DNA of 44,611 nt, from positions 1 through 44,611 of IMG/VR virus record IMGVR_UViG_2703718850_000006. One strand, written 5' to 3'. The stretch's first letter is position 1. The number at the start of each line of letters is the position of its first letter. The translations under genes and the position numbers were made by a program. Below the pieces are notes generated by a model. It saw only the letters and a program-made list of their open reading frames with translations, had not been told where the DNA came from and did not search any database. Below, in pieces: positions 18,038-36,871 of the stretch. The DNA comes from a virus. Lineage: Duplodnaviria; Heunggongvirae; Uroviricota; Caudoviricetes.

Positions 18038-19654
18038 TTACGGCATACTCATCAGCAGTTCTTCTTCCCCGTTCCCGGCAGTTCCGCCACCGGAAACGGC
18101 ACTGGCGGCATGCTGAGCCATGAAGCGCTCAAAAAGTGTTACCTGTGACGGTTGCGATACTGATGGCGCAGCTGCCAGCAGCGTTTTCGCCTGCTCCACT
18201 GTCATTCCAGGTTGTTCAGCCAGCGCCTGTGCCAGTTTTTCGCGTCCTTTTGCTTCCGGCAACGCAATAATTTGATCGCCGGTACTTGCCGTACCGGTTG
18301 CCGGTGCCGCTGCCAGTAGCATTTTCGCCTGTTCCACCGTCATTCCCGGCTGTTCAGCCAGCGCCTGTGCGAGTTGTTCACGCCATTTTGCTTCCGGAAG
18401 TGCCATAATCTGCTCGCCGGTACTTGCCGCACCGGCAACCGGTGCCGCTGCCAGTAACGTTTTCGCCTGCTCCACCGTCATTCCCGGCTGTTCAGCCAGC
18501 GTCCGTGCCAGTTGTTCACGTCCTTTTGCTTCCGGAAGTGCCACAATCTGATCGCCTGTGCTGTCAGTACCGGCAACCGGTGCTGCCGCCAGTAATGTTT
18601 TTGCCTGCTCAACTGACATTCCCTGCTGACCTGCCAGCATCTGCGCCAGTTTTTCGCGTCCTTTCGCCTCCTGACAATTCAGGATCCCCATCACGCGCTG
18701 ATTTTCCCGGGACACCGCTTCAGCAACGGTGAGATTTTTTGTTGTCATCGTATTCTCCTGTGTAACAGAGTCGTTCAGAGCAGAAACCATTACATCAACG
18801 GCATCTGCAGCATTAATCAGTTGATCAGCCAGGCCTGTATCAATGCCTGCCTGACCGTCATAAACGGCAGCCTCGGTATTCATCACCGCCTCTGAACTCA
18901 GCCCCGTATAAAGCGCCACCTTGTCGACAAACATCCGGCGGGCCTCATCAATACGGCGCTGAAAATCCGCACGCACACCTGTCGGCAACGCCTGAATACT
19001 GTTGCCGTCAACCTTGTGCTGCCCGGAGTAAATCAGCGTGATATCCACGCCTTCCTGTGCCAGTTGTTTCTCGTAACTGGTGTGCGCCATCATCACACCA
19101 ATCGAACCAATTTTTGCCGTCTGCGTGACCAGCCGACGCGTACAGGCCGCCGCCAGCAACATGGCGGCTGAACAGGCCATGTCATTACACAGCGCCCACA
19201 CGGGCTTCTGTTCCCGCAGACGGTAAATCATGTCAGCACAGTCAAACGCCCCGGCAGCCTGACCACCCGGACTGTCGATATCCAGTAAAATGCCGCGTAC
19301 ATCCGGGTCGTTCACCGCTGACTTAAGACGGGCAGTCAGACCGTCATAACCGGTCATACCGGAATATGGCCGCAGGGTACCCATTTTATGTACCAACGTG
19401 CCGCTCACCGGCAGAATGGCAATACCATTTTTCACCTGGTAACTCTTTACCGGACGCGGACCACCAGTCATATAATCGGTAACCGCCAGCTGCATACCAT
19501 CGGCATCAAGCTGAACGGCCTGCTGCGGAACGGCAAGGCTGCCCGCCCCCATCTCCTTACCCAGTGCGCAAAAGAAAACCCGCGCATAGGCGGGTTCCAG
19601 TAAAAGCGGCTCATTAAATGCCATCGCGGCAATATGTGATAAATTACAGCGCAT
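18038..19654 (-). CDS. C: head maturation protease / scaffold (C, with embedded Nu3-like region)
   Basis: 538-aa ORF; N-terminal S49/ClpP-like region matches lambda C; C-terminal third has four 46-aa tandem repeats. Confidence 0.9.
   Translation of the reverse strand: MRCNLSHIAAMAFNEPLLLEPAYARVFFCALGKEMGAGSLAVPQQAVQLDADGMQLAVTDYMTGGPRPVKSYQVKNGIAILPVSGTLVHKMGTLRPYSGMTGYDGLTARLKSAVNDPDVRGILLDIDSPGGQAAGAFDCADMIYRLREQKPVWALCNDMACSAAMLLAAACTRRLVTQTAKIGSIGVMMAHTSYEKQLAQEGVDITLIYSGQHKVDGNSIQALPTGVRADFQRRIDEARRMFVDKVALYTGLSSEAVMNTEAAVYDGQAGIDTGLADQLINAADAVDVMVSALNDSVTQENTMTTKNLTVAEAVSRENQRVMGILNCQEAKGREKLAQMLAGQQGMSVEQAKTLLAAAPVAGTDSTGDQIVALPEAKGREQLARTLAEQPGMTVEQAKTLLAAAPVAGAASTGEQIMALPEAKWREQLAQALAEQPGMTVEQAKMLLAAAPATGTASTGDQIIALPEAKGREKLAQALAEQPGMTVEQAKTLLAAAPSVSQPSQVTLFERFMAQHAASAVSGGGTAGNGEEELLMSMP
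18164..18670 (-). repeat. in-frame 138-bp tandem repeat array (about 3.7 units) inside C
   Basis: Nucleotide periodicity (gcgttttcgcctgctccac... recurring at about 18181, 18319, 18457, 18595) and protein repeats EAKGRE.LA..LAEQPGMTVEQAKTLLAAAP. Confidence 0.8.
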
Positions 19655-28756: not shown

Positions 28757-28906
28757 AGATCAGTAAGCACTTCTCTGATAGGCTCATACCGCTTTTGCGC
28801 AAAGCAGATGGGCCTGAGGTTTGCTTGTGATCCCAACGCATGAGCAGATGGCTGGCAGGTGCCGCTAACACCCACCAGCCGCCCATTACCACAAATTAAA
28901 AAGCCT

Positions 28907-29104
28907 TCACTGCGGAAGGCGTCTGTAACAACCGAACTGATAATCTGCCAGACCCGCCATAACAAGCTGGGTCAGTATTAACTGGCAGCGTTCGCGTGAA
29001 AGGTAAGTATTCTGCGCAATTTCCCCGACGGTCGCCGGTTCGGTGACGCTTAATTCATTAAATACCACTCTGGCAGTTTCGGTCATATCCTGCTGTTTTA
29101 GCAT
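28907..29104 (-). CDS. hypothetical small protein (65 aa), possible DNA-binding
   Basis: Internal start of ORF 28907..29329 (MLKQQDMTETARV...); a terminator hairpin lies inside the longer ORF's N-terminal extension. Confidence 0.4.
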   Translation of the reverse strand: MLKQQDMTETARVVFNELSVTEPATVGEIAQNTYLSRERCQLILTQLVMAGLADYQFGCYRRLPQ

Positions 29105-29223
29105 GCCTTTTTCCCTTTCCCGGTTAACGTGACATACCAATAACTCTTGTCGAAAAAGCCAGCAAGCTGAAAGACCGGTATTCGCAACCACCAGCGCATT
29201 TAACGTCCCGTGTCGTTTTTCGG

Positions 29224-29248
29224 GCACAAAAAACCCGCCAAACGGCGG
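29224..29248 (-). terminator. rho-independent terminator (candidate tR-prime)
   Basis: Minus-strand CCCGCC-GTTT-GGCGGG followed by TTTTTTGTG. Confidence 0.6.
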
Positions 29249-29281
29249 GTTTAAGGAAGGAGTCGAAGCAACCACTCTTAA

Positions 29282-29309
29282 CATCATAATTGAATTTTTA
29301 CGTACGTAA
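29282..29309 (-). promoter_or_regulatory. candidate sigma-70 promoter (possible late promoter) with palindrome over the -35
   Basis: Minus-strand TTTACG-N16-TATGAT; 14-bp perfect palindrome TTTACGTACGTAAA. Confidence 0.4.
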
Positions 29310-29614
29310 ACCACAAATACGCCACTCAAATGTTAATGCCATATAACAAAACAAAACATACGAATAACACATATTACATCAAATACATCATTGTTATTTT
29401 TCAATGAAAAATGAGTAAATAATGTATTTCATTAATTAAATTCCGCATTACACAAAAATATCGACAAATTATACCAACGCGCATAAATGAGATCTTGATC
29501 ATATTATCAATCACTAAATTAAACTTGCCTCTTGAAATAACCACATTGATTAGATGAATATTTGTCGCGCAGTGACATCATTTTTTAAAAATAGTTCAAA
29601 AAAAAGGGTTCGTG

Positions 29615-30718
29615 ATGAAAAAATTAACGGTGGCAATTTCTGCTGTGGCTGCATCAGTACTGATGGCGATGTCTGCTCAGGCAGCAGAGATTTATAATAA
29701 AGACAGCAACAAGTTGGATCTGTACGGAAAAGTTAATGCTAAGCACTACTTCTCCTCTAACGATGCAAATGATGGCGACACAACTTATGCTCGTCTGGGT
29801 TTCAAAGGCGAAACTCAGATCAACGATCAACTGACTGGTTTCGGTCAGTGGGAATATGAATTCAAAGGAAACCGTACTGAAGAACAGGGAGCAGCCAAAG
29901 ATAAAACCCGTCTTGCATTTGCAGGGCTTAAATTCGGTGACTACGGCTCCGTCGATTACGGTCGTAACTACGGTGTAGCATACGATATCGGTGCATGGAC
30001 TGACGTTCTGCCAGAATTCGGTGGAGATACCTGGACCCAAACAGATGTATTCATGACTGGTCGCACCACTGGTGTTGCAACTTATCGTAACAACGACTTC
30101 TTTGGTCTGGTTGATGGTCTGAATTTTGCTGCACAGTACCAGGGTAAGAATAATCATGATCGTAGTAGCTTAGATAACTACACCAAAGGCAATGGCGATG
30201 GTTTTGGTTTCTCTGCGACCTATGAATACGAAGGTTTCGGCATTGGTGCAACGTATGCGAAATCTGATCGTACCGACACTCAAGTCAAATTGGGTAAACT
30301 TCTCCCAGGAGTATTTGCTTCCGGCGAAAATGCAGAAGTCTGGGCTGCAGGTCTGAAATACGACGCAAACAACGTTTATCTGGCAACAACCTATTCAGAA
30401 ACCCAGAATATGACTAAATTCGCAGATTACTTTGTGGCTAATAAAGCACAAAACTTCGAAGCTGTTGCACAATATCAGTTCGATTTCGGTCTGCGTCCGT
30501 CTGTTGCTTATCTGCAATCAAAAGGTAAAGATCTTGGCATTTTTGGTGACCAAGATTTAGTCAAATATGTTGATGTTGGCGCAACTTATTATTTCAACAA
30601 AAATATGTCTACCTTCGTTGATTACAAAATCAACCTGCTTGACAAAAATGACTTTACTAAAGCTCTTGGTGTAAACACTGACGATATCGTTGCTGTAGGT
30701 ATGGTATACCAGTTCTAA
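29615..30718 (+). CDS. nmpC: outer-membrane porin, NmpC/OmpD-like (OmpC family)
   Basis: ORF 29612..30718 trimmed to ATG; signal peptide [23 protein letters not shown] and general-porin hallmarks; opposite strand between Q and late genes as in DLP12. Confidence 0.85.
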
Positions 30719-30737
30719 TCTGGTTAATAAAGGATAT

Positions 30738-30762
30738 GCTGAGAAGGTTTTATCTTCTCAGC
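30738..30762. other. 9-bp stem-loop between porin stop and Q stop
   Basis: gctgagaag-gttttat-cttctcagc. Confidence 0.4.
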
Positions 30763-30856
30763 ATATAAGTGGCTCCCTCAAGCCACTTCTTTAAGAAGCA
30801 TTAGAGCCCTGCTTCTTACTATCTAAACTTTCTGTTATATATTACCCTTTATCTTG

Positions 30857-30884
30857 GGGGTGTTTTTACGCCCCATTTTTTATT
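30857..30884 (+). terminator. rho-independent terminator downstream of porin
   Basis: ggggtg-ttttta-cgcccc followed by attttttatt. Confidence 0.55.
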
Positions 30885-30898
30885 AAAAAATAATCGTA

Positions 30899-31282
30899 TT
30901 AATTAAGCTTAGTAACATCAATATCCATCTCTAAGCAAATGTCTAATGCCATTAACATACCTTCGATTATTCCCTCTGCTTTCTGTAACCTTTTCCCGAT
31001 ATACCCATCAGAGCAATTATGCTTCCGCGCCAGCATCATAAACGTCATCCCACCAACATAATAATCCACCAGCAAATCATGTAAGCCATTGTTGCTCTTT
31101 TTCAGACAGGCCATACATCCACAAATGATCATCGCGTCATCGTCACAGCATTGCGGACGAGATCTTACTTTTGAAGGAATTAATCCCTTAAAACCGGCGG
31201 CAACGGACGACCAGGTCACATCTTCATGATTATTAGCCGCCCACGCTCCCCAACGCTCAAGAACCATCTGAATATCACGCAT
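30899..31282 (-). CDS. Q: late antiterminator Q (QuuD-like)
   Basis: 127-aa [25 protein letters not shown]...; matches the DLP12 QuuD/YbcQ antiterminator family as I recall it. Confidence 0.8.
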
Positions 31283-35560: not shown

Positions 35561-36215
35561 GGCGCACCTCCCATTGATTACGACAGAAAGTGGAGTGATT
35601 CAGGTGGGTTTCAGCTTCACGGAATGCTTCAATGCAGCTCTCGTAGTACCGCATTGTGCGCAGACTTAACCCAAGCTGAAGCATCATCAGACCATCAAGG
35701 GTGATGTAATAACCTCGCAAAGAGTCACCATAGATGTGATAAGTACCCGGTATGAAATTGCGGGTGAAAAATTCGCGCGAGCAGTTCAGGTACTCGATTT
35801 TGTCGACGATGTTCTGGTGCATGCGCTTGAAATGACAGGCAACATGCAGAGAGAAAATAACGGCCTTGCCGTTGACGACTTCGATTTTGAGGAATGGGGA
35901 AGTTGGGACAGTAGCCATGATGGCAGCCTCCGTATGCAATGGATAACTTCCACCACCGGAGCTGCGAAACTCATGGGTGGTGAACTGAACAGGGTTCGCA
36001 GTACCGGCGCATACGGAAACCGGCGAGCCTTTCGGCTCCCCTGCCCAGCCCACCATAATTCTGGCGTGCGTGAGCGCGGACGATAAAAAAGACGCTGGCG
36101 CGTCATATATCGCCGTATGCAATTCCGGGCTGCGACCCCCGGCACCCGCTTTATAAGGTGCAGAGACAGTGTAACGTTCCAAAAGTGCAGAATCAATATT
36201 CAGGTAGCGGATCAT
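35550..36215 (-). CDS. hypothetical protein, duplicated gene copy A (221 aa)
   Basis: ORF with strong RBS GGGAGGTG; near-identical to copy B over about 200 residues. Confidence 0.6.
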   Translation of the reverse strand: MIRYLNIDSALLERYTVSAPYKAGAGGRSPELHTAIYDAPASFLSSALTHARIMVGWAGEPKGSPVSVCAGTANPVQFTTHEFRSSGGGSYPLHTEAAIMATVPTSPFLKIEVVNGKAVIFSLHVACHFKRMHQNIVDKIEYLNCSREFFTRNFIPGTYHIYGDSLRGYYITLDGLMMLQLGLSLRTMRYYESCIEAFREAETHLNHSTFCRNQWEVRHAQ

Positions 36216-36871
36216 AGGTGCACCTCCCGTTGATGACGACGGAAAGCGGAATGTACCTGGACGGTTTCAGCTTCATGGAATGCATCAATACAGCTCTCGT
36301 AGTACCGCATTGTGCGCAGACTTAACCCAAGCTGAAGCATCATCAGCCCATCAAGGGTGATGTAATAACCACGCAGGGAGTCACCATAGATGTGATAAGT
36401 ACCCGGTATGAAATTGCGGGTAAAAAATTCGCGTGAGCAGTTCAGATACTCGATTTTGTCGACGATGTTCTGGTGCATGCGCTTGAAATGGCAGGCTACA
36501 TGCAGGGAGAAAATAACGGCCTTACCGTTAATAATCTCAATTTTGAGGAATGGGGAAGTTGGGACAGTAGCCATGATGGCAGCCTCCGTATGCAATGGAT
36601 AACTTCCACCACCGGAGGTTCCAATCTCACTGGTGGTGAACTGAACAGGGTTGGAACTACCGGCGCATACGGAAACCGGCGAGCCTTTCGGCTCCCCTGC
36701 CCAGCCCACCATAATTCTGGCGTGCGTGAGCGCGGACGATAAAAAAGACGCTGGCGCGTCGTATATCGCCGTATGCAATTCCGGGGTTCCAATCCCGGCA
36801 CCCGCTTTATAAGGTGCCGGAACAGTGTAACGTCCCGAAATTGCAGAATCAATATGTTGGTTGCGGATCAT
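36212..36871 (-). CDS. hypothetical protein, duplicated gene copy B (about 219 aa)
   Basis: ORF 36212..36892 trimmed to MIRNQ start; ATGA-coupled to copy A. Confidence 0.6.
   Translation of the reverse strand: MIRNQHIDSAISGRYTVPAPYKAGAGIGTPELHTAIYDAPASFLSSALTHARIMVGWAGEPKGSPVSVCAGSSNPVQFTTSEIGTSGGGSYPLHTEAAIMATVPTSPFLKIEIINGKAVIFSLHVACHFKRMHQNIVDKIEYLNCSREFFTRNFIPGTYHIYGDSLRGYYITLDGLMMLQLGLSLRTMRYYESCIDAFHEAETVQVHSAFRRHQREVHL

What the first reader, a model, noticed from the sequence alone, without database searches (positions are those of the whole stretch)
29224..29310. Candidate late promoter with a 14-bp perfect palindrome and a terminator about 50 nt downstream, displaced 1.6 kb from Q
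On the minus strand, TTTACG-N16-TATGAT is followed by a strong terminator (CCCGCC-GTTT-GGCGGG-TTTTTT). The -35 lies within the palindrome TTTACGTACGTAAA. A promoter feeding a short terminated transcript upstream of the late genes is the architecture Q antiterminators act on. Here it sits beyond the converging porin gene, and the first downstream genes are a 65-aa ORF and the methyltransferase, not the holin.
Basis: inference. Interest (0 to 1): 0.5.

Follow-up and report, generated by a model that had tools for sequence, protein, structure and literature searches.

The report
Q-dependent late promoter and terminator
This is the prophage's late-gene switch: a promoter, a likely antiterminator (Q) docking site and a terminator, of the same kind that controls Shiga toxin phages; it lies 1.6 kb from the Q gene only because a porin gene was inserted between them.

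Summary
On the minus strand lie TTTACG-N16-TATGAT, the 14-bp palindrome TTTACGTACGTAAA, and a strong hairpin plus U-tract that would end a roughly 49-nt RNA.

None of these motifs is significant alone; conservation makes them real. The same roughly 85-bp module occurs:
- in E. coli K-12 prophage DLP12, between nmpC and essD;
- in phiP27 and Stx2a_1447;
- at 75% identity, as the annotated PR' of 933W/Sakai-type Stx phages. There the dRNA-seq start site maps to the homologous A, by my conversion of the published coordinates. This predicts +1 near window 29276.

A Q21-family (PF06530) Q gene lies upstream in all 32 loci where a Q gene was detected. It abuts the element in about 11 of them and is 0.3-2.9 kb away in about 21. 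The gap mostly holds reverse-strand cargo.

The element is a new member of a known kind.

The less expected result concerns -34..-21. This segment is dyad-symmetric about a fixed centre (-27.5/-28) in about ten sequence variants, and each variant pairs with its own Q recognition-helix variant. The palindrome is therefore probably the Q-binding element. It is an inverted repeat, unlike phage 21's direct repeat. Binding and pausing remain untested.

The parts
30899..31282 (-). Q antiterminator gene, 127 aa. Q21 family, QuuD/Q933W branch. Predicted helix-turn-helix at residues about 80-102, recognition helix [12 protein letters not shown] at 91-102.
   Evidence: Pfam PF06530, E = 5.5e-52, full length. 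Matches the Q21 chains of PDB 6P18/6JNX at E = 7e-8. 87% identical to K-12 QuuD. Helix position.
29612..30718 (+). Porin gene (NmpC/Lc/OmpC-like). This reverse-oriented cargo separates Q from its late promoter. Its own terminators lie at 30734-30766 and 30857-30874, and its AT-rich upstream region at 29311-29611.
   Evidence: PF00267, E = 8e-152. Terminator-like sites. Same arrangement in DLP12 and PhiR34_1.
29297..29310 (-). 14-bp perfect palindrome TTTACGTACGTAAA spanning -34..-21, centred at -27.5. Candidate Q-binding element (QBE). Its left arm is also the -35 hexamer.
   Evidence: Sequence. Dyad symmetry at the same centre in about 10 sequence variants. Each variant pairs 1:1 with a Q recognition-helix motif. 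Binding was not tested.
29283..29310 (-). Late promoter PR': -35 TTTACG (29310-29305), 16-nt spacer, -10 TATGAT (29288-29283).
   Evidence: Promoter scan hit, 9 of 12. Homologous to the PR' annotated in Ss-VASD. T-12 and A-11 were required by the filter used; T-7 is present in 95 of 102 unique homologues.
29276..29276 (-). Predicted transcription start (+1, an A).
   Evidence: Inferred by homology to the dRNA-seq start of Sakai Sp5 PR'. I mapped that start onto the sequence, with an uncertainty of about 1-2 nt.
29264..29279 (-). Candidate sigma-dependent pause module: -10-like AAGAGT (-3..+3), GGT discriminator (+4..+6), and TTC|G at +10..+13.
   Evidence: T-4, A-3, A-2, T+3 and T+6 are at least 95% conserved, although the search pattern biases this. 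It resembles the phage 21 SDPE TAAGCTG and lambda's AACGAT-GGG-TTAATTC|G. This is inference only.
29228..29252 (-). First intrinsic terminator (tR'-like): 9-bp stem, GTTT loop, U6. It would end a roughly 47-50-nt RNA.
   Evidence: Fold result. A hairpin plus U-tract is kept at +25..+65 with different stem sequences in other genera, in about 30 of 32 unique variants.
28907..29104 (-). 65-aa ORF, the first gene of the late transcript. A terminator-like hairpin at 28903-28920 overlaps its stop codon.
   Evidence: Annotated as hypothetical or TrmB-family in phiP27. 100% identical to the phiP27 protein. No Pfam hit.
27710..28756 (-). N6/N4 DNA methyltransferase.
   Evidence: PF01555, E = 1.3e-43. 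Same position in phiP27 and Stx2a_1447.
27419..27491 (-). tRNA-Gly(UCC) in the late leader region. Three more terminator-like hairpins follow at 27116-27134, 27077-27094 and 26968-26983.
25738..26942 (-). Lysis genes: two holins (26553-26942 and 26285-26575) and a GH108 endolysin (25738-26304). These are the late genes that need read-through.
   Evidence: ORFs. Annotation of the 97%-identical E. coli C5 prophage.

Best explanation
This is the late-gene regulatory module (PR' - Q-binding site - early pause region - first terminator) on which the prophage's own Q protein acts. Q is encoded at 30899-31282 and belongs to the Q21 family.

Proposed sequence of events:
1. Host sigma-70 RNA polymerase starts at about 29276 on the minus strand.
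2. Without Q, transcription stops at the hairpin plus U-tract at 29252-29228. This releases an RNA of about 49 nt.
3. After induction, Q binds the 14-bp inverted repeat at -34..-21 through its C-terminal helix-turn-helix.
4. Q loads onto polymerase held early in transcription. The hold probably comes from sigma region 2 re-binding the -10-like AAGAGT at -3..+3, with pausing near +12/+13.
5. The modified polymerase reads through this terminator and at least four further terminator-like hairpins. It then expresses the 65-aa ORF, the methyltransferase, tRNA-Gly, the holins, the endolysin and the structural genes.

The 1.6-kb distance from Q has no mechanistic meaning, because Q acts in trans. It reflects insertion of a reverse-oriented porin gene into a slot between Q and PR' that often holds cargo.

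Shown here: motif presence, homology, synteny, covariation and the fold.
Inferred: promoter activity, termination efficiency, Q binding to the palindrome, and the pause element and pause position.
For: 1. Homology to a mapped promoter.
- The window, DLP12, phiP27, Stx2a_1447 and 933W-type phages align from -35 to the U-tract.
- The 933W-type copy is annotated 'putative late promoter PR''.
- Its dRNA-seq start, after my coordinate conversion, falls on the A seven nt after the -10.

2. Same design as phage 21.
- The phage 21 record annotates a -35, a QBE in the spacer, a -10, a start site, an SDPE at +2..+8 and a terminator ending near +50.
- The window Q is PF06530 and hits the Q21 structures.

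3. Synteny with Q.
- A PF06530 gene lies upstream on the same strand in all 32 loci where one was detected.
- The nine loci with no Q hit have at most 2.8 kb of upstream sequence.
- The element was found downstream of Q in 66 of 80 QuuD-class IMG/VR loci. Seven of the other 14 were too short; the other seven carry a different recognition helix (point 4).
- It was found in 77 of 80 class-F loci.

4. Covariation between the palindrome and Q.
- The -34..-21 segment is dyad-symmetric about -27.5/-28 in about 10 variants.
- Each variant goes with one motif in the Q recognition helix.
- A TA versus AT centre tracks SDG[YH]IGK versus SDT[CH]IGK in both the E. coli and the Trabulsiella lineages.
- GCGG[T/A]CCGC stays paired with DEK.IRIE across gaps of 48-2759 nt.
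- A Q with a QuuD-like N-terminus but helix SDCWVGRML lacks the element.

5. Terminator function looks selected.
- Hairpins plus U-tracts with different stem sequences sit at the same place in other genera.
- Terminator-like sites are enriched between PR' and the holins (24 found against 9.8 expected).

6. The early transcribed region resembles known pause modules.
- AAGAGT-GGT-TGCTTC|G resembles lambda's AACGAT-GGG-TTAATTC|G.
- It also resembles the phage 21 SDPE TAAGCT.
Against: - No transcript, binding or read-through data exist for this sequence.
- In the closest studied homologue (Sakai Sp5), Term-seq placed the PR' transcript's 3' end at +258. It did not place it at the homologous first hairpin near +50. 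The first hairpin may therefore terminate only partly, although the window's stem is stronger.
- The Q/palindrome covariation could partly reflect co-inheritance of neighbouring DNA.
- Many of the loci are close relatives. Most were also found with a pattern that forces TAAGAGTGGTT, so conservation of that block is biased.
- A -10-like element at -3..+3 overlaps the start site. It is 5-6 nt closer to the start than in phage 21 or lambda.
- The better -10-like TACATT of 933W-type phages (+7..+12) is TGCTTC here.
- The proposed QBE is an inverted repeat overlapping the -35. Phage 21's QBE is a direct repeat inside the spacer.
Confidence: 0.85

Rival explanations
1. The element is a Q-independent unit. 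It would be a constitutive promoter making a stand-alone small RNA, or an attenuated leader for the 65-aa ORF and methyltransferase cargo. True Q action would occur elsewhere.
For: The PR' transcript of Stx phages does act as an sRNA, StxS. The first downstream genes are cargo-like rather than lysis genes.
Against: In DLP12 the element sits directly before the lysis genes, with no 65-aa ORF or methyltransferase. It is always downstream of a PF06530 Q gene. The functional part of StxS has no homologue in the window, and no Rfam family matches. No second copy of the element or the palindrome exists in the window. An sRNA role for the short RNA is still compatible with the main explanation.
Confidence: 0.07
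2. The palindrome is the operator of a different dimeric regulator. One candidate is the 65-aa winged-helix-like protein acting as a controller of the methyltransferase; another is a phage repressor. It would not be a Q-binding site.
For: Perfect palindromes are typical of dimeric repressors or controller proteins. A small putative DNA-binding ORF and a methyltransferase lie just downstream. Q21 itself uses a direct repeat.
Against: The 65-aa protein is 100% identical in the window and in phiP27, yet their palindromes differ (TTTACGTACGTAAA versus GGAATTCC). Most loci lack that ORF altogether. DLP12 and 933W-type phages keep the palindrome without an intact methyltransferase. The palindrome class tracks the Q recognition helix, not the upstream cargo or the downstream genes.
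Confidence: 0.1
3. The real Q loading site lies immediately downstream of Q (30719-30898), as in canonical phages. The element at 29224-29310 would then be a secondary internal promoter.
For: In canonical phages PR' abuts Q.
Against: The 180-bp Q-porin spacer holds two plus-strand terminators belonging to the porin cassette. It has no PR'-like module. In relatives this spacer travels with the porin cargo.
Confidence: 0.03
4. The arrangement is a chance juxtaposition of a promoter-like match, a palindrome and a terminator.
For: Each motif alone occurs at chance frequency in this window.
Against: The whole arrangement is conserved in hundreds of phages and thousands of genomes, with fixed spacing.
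Confidence: 0.01

Closest known systems
PR' late promoter of 933W/H-19B/Sakai Sp5-Sp15 Stx phages (source of the StxS RNA)
   Same: Homologous DNA: 75% identity over about 84 nt. Same -35 TTTACG, 16-nt spacer and TATnAT -10. Same GnTAAGAGTGGTT start region, with the start site mapped there. A 14-bp palindrome at the same place (TTTACGATCGTAAA). A first hairpin plus U-tract near +50. A Q of the same Pfam family.
   Different: There Q abuts PR' (the Q stop codon is just before the -35); here they are 1.6 kb apart. The centre of the palindrome is AT there and TA here, and the Q helix is SDTCIGK there and SDGYIGK here. The reported tR' is at +258, and the 74-nt StxS part has no homologue here.
Phage 21 pR' cassette (QBE, SDPE, terminator), structurally characterised with Q21
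   Same: Same Q protein family. Same order: promoter, Q site upstream of the -10, a -10-like TAAG.. element near +1, and a terminator giving an RNA of about 50 nt.
   Different: The Q21 QBE is a direct repeat (ATTGAGCA and AATGAGCA) lying between the -35 and the -10. Here the candidate is an inverted repeat overlapping the -35, about 9 bp further upstream. Q21 has a loop of about 23 aa between its two HTH helices that contacts the minor groove; this Q has a 5-aa turn. There is no DNA sequence homology.
E. coli K-12 cryptic prophage DLP12 (Qsr'): quuD - nmpC - essD rrrD rzpD
   Same: Same Q class (87% identity). Same reverse porin between Q and the element. Identical palindrome. Nearly identical leader and terminator. 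The predicted K-12 RNA runs from about 577,229 to 577,276 on the plus strand.
   Different: In DLP12 the element is followed directly by the holin essD. nmpC is interrupted by IS5, so the gap is 2.9 kb. The leader differs at +8 and at +14..+21.
Lambda PR' / 6S RNA / Q-lambda
   Same: Same regulatory logic. The early transcribed region is similar: AACGAT-GGG-TTAATTC|G in lambda and AAGAGT-GGT-TGCTTC|G here.
   Different: The Q protein family is unrelated (PF03589). The terminated RNA is 194 nt in lambda. Lambda's pause element lies at +1..+6.

Membership tests
Lambdoid Q-dependent late regulatory cassette (Q, PR', QBE, SDPE, tR', late genes) | Q antiterminator gene upstream on the same strand | tested here: met
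   PF06530, E = 5.5e-52, full length. Hits the Q21 PDB chains.
Lambdoid Q-dependent late regulatory cassette (Q, PR', QBE, SDPE, tR', late genes) | Sigma-70 promoter with a mapped start site | tested here: inconclusive
   Consensus match of 9 of 12. Homologous to the TSS-mapped and annotated PR' of Sakai and Ss-VASD. No transcript data exist for this sequence.
Lambdoid Q-dependent late regulatory cassette (Q, PR', QBE, SDPE, tR', late genes) | Intrinsic terminator shortly after the start site | tested here: met
   9-bp stem, tetraloop and U6 at +25..+49. Total fold -17.7 kcal/mol, z = -3.1. The structure is conserved with different sequences in other genera.
Lambdoid Q-dependent late regulatory cassette (Q, PR', QBE, SDPE, tR', late genes) | Q-binding element in the promoter, specific to the cognate Q | tested here: inconclusive
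   The palindrome at -34..-21 covaries 1:1 with the Q recognition helix. Binding cannot be tested with these tools.
Lambdoid Q-dependent late regulatory cassette (Q, PR', QBE, SDPE, tR', late genes) | -10-like sigma-dependent pause element in the early transcribed region | tested here: inconclusive
   The candidate AAGAGT lies at -3..+3, so it overlaps the start site. The +7..+12 position that looks -10-like in 933W (TACATT) is TGCTTC here.
Lambdoid Q-dependent late regulatory cassette (Q, PR', QBE, SDPE, tR', late genes) | Lysis and structural genes downstream on the same strand | tested here: met
   Holins, a GH108 endolysin and a small terminase subunit are annotated in the 97%-identical C5 prophage.
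Lambdoid Q-dependent late regulatory cassette (Q, PR', QBE, SDPE, tR', late genes) | PR' immediately adjacent to Q (canonical layout) | tested here: not met
   The gap is 1588 nt and holds a reverse porin gene. The same holds in about 21 of 32 species-level loci. Adjacency is therefore typical but not defining.
Phage 21-type QBE | Direct repeat of two 6-8-bp subsites (TGAGCA) between the -35 and the -10 | tested here: not met
   There is no TGAGCA and no consistent direct repeat. An inverted repeat occupies -34..-21 instead.
StxS small RNA | 258-nt PR' transcript whose 3' 74 nt form the Hfq-binding regulator | tested here: not met
   Only the first roughly 50 nt are homologous. The remainder has no match in the window.
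Controller (C-protein) operator of a restriction-modification system | Palindromic operator recognised by the adjacent small HTH protein, with a restriction enzyme gene nearby | tested here: not met
   The 65-aa protein is identical in the window and phiP27 although their palindromes differ. No endonuclease gene lies between the methyltransferase and the holins.

The most novel reading that the evidence does not exclude
Four linked proposals:
- The largest branch of the Q21 family (QuuD, Q933W, phiP27 and 'qO111'-type Q proteins, including those controlling Stx2) recognises an inverted-repeat QBE. This QBE is centred at -27.5/-28 and overlaps the -35. It is read by a short-turn helix-turn-helix, not by Q21's loop-containing motif on a direct repeat.
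- At least nine mutually distinct Q-helix/palindrome specificity classes exist. One class pair differs only in the central TA versus AT, together with Gly versus Thr at helix position 3. This would give a readable recognition code.
- Loading may occur on a polymerase paused unusually early, through a -10-like element that overlaps the start site.
- The Q-PR' junction is a preferred insertion slot for reverse-oriented cargo, including anti-phage defence genes.
Probability: 0.5. Interest if true: 0.55.

Novelty: new member of a known kind. Interest (0 to 1): 0.4.

Why it matters
This element sets when, and how strongly, the late genes of a very common family of enterobacterial prophages are expressed. 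In related phages those late genes include Shiga toxin.

It is unannotated in the genome records examined, although about two thirds of complete E. coli genomes carry a copy, K-12 among them. Recognising it fixes the true start of the late operon when cargo separates it from Q.

If the palindrome is the Q-binding site, the covariation table predicts which Q activates which prophage in strains carrying several prophages. This bears on differences in Stx production between q alleles. It would also offer sets of non-cross-reacting antiterminator/promoter pairs for engineering.

The Q-PR' gap also looks like a place to search for prophage-borne defence genes.

Tried and rejected
- Rfam. The gathering-threshold scan of the whole window and the E-value scan of 29100-29400 found no family. 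Only weak hits driven by the terminator appeared.
- Literature search for the palindrome and leader sequences, and for 'qut'/QBE of 933W. Nothing relevant was found in the open library. Zhang 2018 compares pR' regions but does not define these elements. The phiP27 paper is not held.
- StxS homology. Rejected beyond the first roughly 50 nt.
- Phage 82 as the model. Rejected, because Q82 belongs to another family, PF06323. I used 82 only for general pause features.
- SDPE at +7..+12 (TACATT in 933W). Rejected as a general element: position +8 varies between A, G and T, and the site is TGCTTC here.
- Reading the operator as a direct repeat (TACG-TACG or ACGC-N2-ACGC). Not consistent across variants; only dyad symmetry is.
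- The 65-aa protein or the methyltransferase as the palindrome partner. Rejected.
- A small 5' hairpin (GUGG...CCAC) folds in most variants but is shifted in the window. Its arms were partly forced by my search pattern, so I draw no conclusion from it.
- Searches for K-12 transcript evidence around essD gave nothing usable.

Full report
**1. The observation**

On the minus strand the window reads GG-TTTACG-TACGTAAAAATTCAAT-TATGAT-GTTAAGAGTGGTTGCTTCGACTCCTTCCTT-AAACCCGCC-GTTT-GGCGGGTTT-TTTGTG.

- The -35 hexamer is at 29310-29305 and the -10 hexamer at 29288-29283, with a 16-nt spacer.
- The 14-bp perfect palindrome TTTACGTACGTAAA is at 29310-29297.
- The hairpin spans 29252-29231, and its T6 run lies at 29233-29228.

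The promoter scan lists the promoter. It misses the hairpin, apparently because extending the stem through the A/T pairs consumes the T-run. The RNA from the predicted start folds into this hairpin at -17.7 kcal/mol, z = -3.1.

Taken alone the motifs are not significant. The scan found 7 promoter-like sites against 14.1 expected. The window has four 14-bp palindromes against 2.6 expected.

**2. Genomic context**

The minus strand encodes, in order:

- a DnaB-type helicase;
- a 127-aa Q protein (30899-31282; PF06530, E = 5.5e-52);
- the element described here;
- a 65-aa ORF (28907-29104);
- an N6/N4 methyltransferase (27710-28756);
- tRNA-Gly;
- two holins, a GH108 endolysin and the terminase.

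A porin gene on the plus strand (29612-30718) converges on Q. The distance from the Q stop codon to the -35 is 1588 nt.

The Q sequence matches the Q21 chains of PDB 6P18/6JNX. PF06530 is the Q21 family.

**3. The element is conserved and homologous to a mapped late promoter**

The stretch from about -25 to the U-tract recurs in very different surroundings:

- in phiP27, after a GIY-YIG nuclease gene;
- in Stx2a_1447, after two reverse ORFs;
- in E. coli K-12 DLP12 and phage PhiR34_1, after the reverse porin gene and directly before the holin essD.

A more sensitive search found it in 258 phage records. Among them are the 933W/Sakai-type Stx phages, where it abuts or overlaps the 3' end of Q at 75% identity (alignment).

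- In Shigella phage Ss-VASD exactly this -35/-10 pair is annotated 'putative late promoter PR''.
- Sy et al. mapped the Sakai PR' start site by dRNA-seq, 258 nt upstream of tR'.
- I placed those coordinates on the current Sakai record, using the tR' U-tract as an anchor. The start then falls on the A seven nt after TATCAT.
- The homologous base in the window is 29276.

The family is present in 3588 of 5426 complete E. coli genomes. No annotation lies under it in the records listed. No Rfam family matches.

**4. The design matches phage 21**

The annotated phage 21 genome lists a -35, a QBE (ATTGAGCA and AATGAGCA), a -10, a start site, an SDPE (TAAGCTG at +2..+8) and a terminator ending near +50. 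The window element has the same order and the same transcript length, although the DNA is not homologous.

**5. Link to Q**

An exact-pattern scan of one genome per species returned about 33 Enterobacterales loci. They come from Escherichia, Shigella, Yersinia, Serratia, Enterobacter, Citrobacter, Kosakonia, Trabulsiella, Phytobacter, Tatumella, Ewingella, Rosenbergiella and Atlantibacter. Hits in unrelated phyla were chance matches.

A PF06530 gene lies upstream on the same strand in all 32 loci where one was detected. The nine loci without a Q hit have at most 2.8 kb of upstream sequence. The gap is 11-60 nt in about 11 loci and 315-2919 nt in about 21.

In IMG/VR:

- 66 of 80 QuuD-class loci carry the element 1.56-2.9 kb downstream of Q, always with TTTACGTACGTAAA.
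- Of the other 14, seven were too short to tell.
- The remaining seven carry a different recognition helix, described below.

**6. The palindrome**

In every sequence variant the segment around -28 is dyad-symmetric about the same centre, -27.5 or -28. The variants are:

- TTTACGTACGTAAA
- TTTACGATCGTAAA
- GCGTACGC
- GGAATTCC
- TGTAATTACA
- (T)GCGG-T-CCGC(A)
- TCGG-C-CCGA
- ATTCGT-T-ACGAAT
- ATGC-N5-GCAT

At a fixed centre, arms of four or more pairs have a chance of about 1/256 per variant. Both arms have changed together between variants.

Each variant goes with one motif in the second helix of Q's C-terminal helix-turn-helix:

| Operator | Q recognition helix |
|---|---|
| ...CG-TA-CG... 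| SDG[YH]IGK |
| ...CG-AT-CG... | SDT[CH]IGK |
| GCGTACGC (13 loci in Escherichia, Shigella, Yersinia, Serratia, Enterobacter and Phytobacter, with different cargo) | SDGT[IV]RK |
| GGAATTCC | SHTQILK |
| TGTAATTACA | SHNHVSV |
| GCGGTCCGC | [DS]EK.IRI |

- The TA-versus-AT pairing holds in both the E. coli and the Trabulsiella lineages.
- In a separate sample, 77 of 80 loci with helix DEK.IRIE carry GCGG[T/A]CCGC at -28, with gaps from 48 to 2759 nt.
- One Q type has an N-terminus almost identical to QuuD but the helix SDCWVGRML. It lacks the element and has a different region after Q.

By contrast, the leader from -10 to +25 is shared across Q classes. The homology breakpoint between the window and phiP27 lies inside the spacer, at about 29299.

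Other candidate partners are excluded.

- The 65-aa protein is identical in the window and in phiP27, although their palindromes differ.
- Most loci lack that ORF.
- DLP12 lacks the methyltransferase.

I therefore read the palindrome as the Q-binding element. It has the same 6+2+6 size as Q21's TGAGCA-N2-TGAGCA. It differs in being inverted, and in lying about 9 bp further upstream, over the -35.

This Q also lacks the loop of about 23 residues between the two HTH helices that Q21 inserts into the minor groove.

Caveats:
- The covariation is also what tight linkage would produce.
- The samples contain many close relatives.
- Binding has not been shown.

**7. Pause element**

Among 102 unique homologues, T-4, A-3, A-2, T+3 and T+6 are at least 95% conserved. 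T-12 and A-11 are invariant, but only because the filter required them. The search pattern also biases the TAAGAGTGGTT block.

AAGAGT (-3..+3) has the A and T that sigma region 2 would flip out. It is followed by GGT and then TTC|G at +10..+13. Two known modules look similar:

- lambda's AACGAT-GGG-TTAATTC|G, with its hexamer at +1..+6 and its pause at +16;
- the phage 21 SDPE, TAAGCT.

My best guess is an early sigma-dependent pause near +12/+13. The hexamer overlaps the start site, so confidence is low.

The alternative TACATT at +7..+12 in 933W-type phages is not conserved, and here it reads TGCTTC.

**8. Terminator and downstream**

About 30 of 32 unique variants keep a GC-rich hairpin plus U-tract between +25 and +65, with different stem sequences in different genera. 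This points to selection for termination.

One caution comes from Sakai. There the reported 3' end of the PR' RNA is the second terminator at +258, not the homologous first hairpin. The first hairpin may therefore leak. The window's hairpin has a longer stem and a tetraloop.

Four more terminator-like hairpins lie between the element and the holins. Terminator-like sites are enriched in this 10-kb region, 24 found against 9.8 expected. This fits a need for processive antitermination.

The StxS regulatory segment is absent.

**9. Cargo**

The DNA between Q and PR' is mostly reverse-oriented. Examples:

- porins, as in the window;
- a GIY-YIG nuclease;
- PD-Lambda-5_A;
- an AriA/NsnB-like ATPase;
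- a KAP NTPase (PDC-S20);
- a RelA/SpoT-like protein (PDC-S33).

**10. Verdict**

The element is a new member of a known kind: the PR'/tR' cassette of Q21-family antiterminators.

That DLP12 (Qsr') can replace lambda's Q-S-R functions is my own recollection of the older genetics. I did not verify it with the tools.

The inverted-repeat QBE with its covarying specificity classes, and the cargo slot, are the parts that a specialist might find new. Both remain to be tested.

Noticed in passing
window 29311-30898; loci L020, L023, L043, L046, L051 and others: The gap between Q and PR' is a recurrent insertion slot for mostly reverse-strand cargo. In the window the cargo is a porin. Elsewhere it includes PD-Lambda-5_A, an AriA/NsnB-like AAA ATPase, a KAP NTPase (PDC-S20), a RelA/SpoT-like protein with an NA37 partner, and several ORFs with no family match.
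   Followed up: partly
L154, L156, L157, L160, L162, L163 (IMG/VR), first 130 nt after Q: A Q with a QuuD-like N-terminus but recognition helix SDCWVGRML is followed by a different region. That region holds a 7-1-7 palindrome (AACATTTTAAATGTT), a TATCAT -10-like hexamer and a 933W-tR'-like terminator (GCCAGCCTCCCC..GGCTGG-T7). It may be another PR' class.
   Followed up: partly
L008 (Sakai Sp5) 1069-1094, that is +24..+50 of PR': The 933W-type PR' leader contains a hairpin plus U7 homologous to the window's terminator. The StxS study nevertheless reports only the 3' end at +258. A transcript of about 50 nt may have been missed, or this hairpin may leak.
   Followed up: no
L003 4690-4790 = E. 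coli K-12 MG1655 about 577,190-577,290 (+): K-12 DLP12 carries the same unannotated module between nmpC and essD. The predicted RNA runs from about 577,229 to 577,276. No literature on it turned up in the open library.
   Followed up: partly
window 35973-36060, 36085-36161, 36629-36716, 36741-36817 (-): Two tandem copies, about 656 bp apart, of a C4 antisense RNA plus isrK pair. This looks like a duplicated P1/P7-type immunity/antirepressor module.
   Followed up: no
window 846-1044 (-): Full-length match to the Rfam family IS009 at 207 bits.
   Followed up: no
window 27419-27491 (-): A tRNA-Gly(UCC) sits in the late leader, where Stx phages carry ileZ/argN/argO.
   Followed up: no
window 19572-19597 (-): A second hairpin 92% identical over 26 nt to the Sakai PR' first-terminator sequence. 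It is probably another intrinsic terminator in the prophage.
   Followed up: no
-45..-38 of most homologues (for example L005, L021, L052, L080): An A-rich tract resembling a proximal UP element precedes the palindrome when Q is adjacent, and in most cargo classes. It is missing in the window and in DLP12, where the porin cassette joins directly at the -35. Classes C and F have no recognisable -35 hexamer.
   Followed up: no
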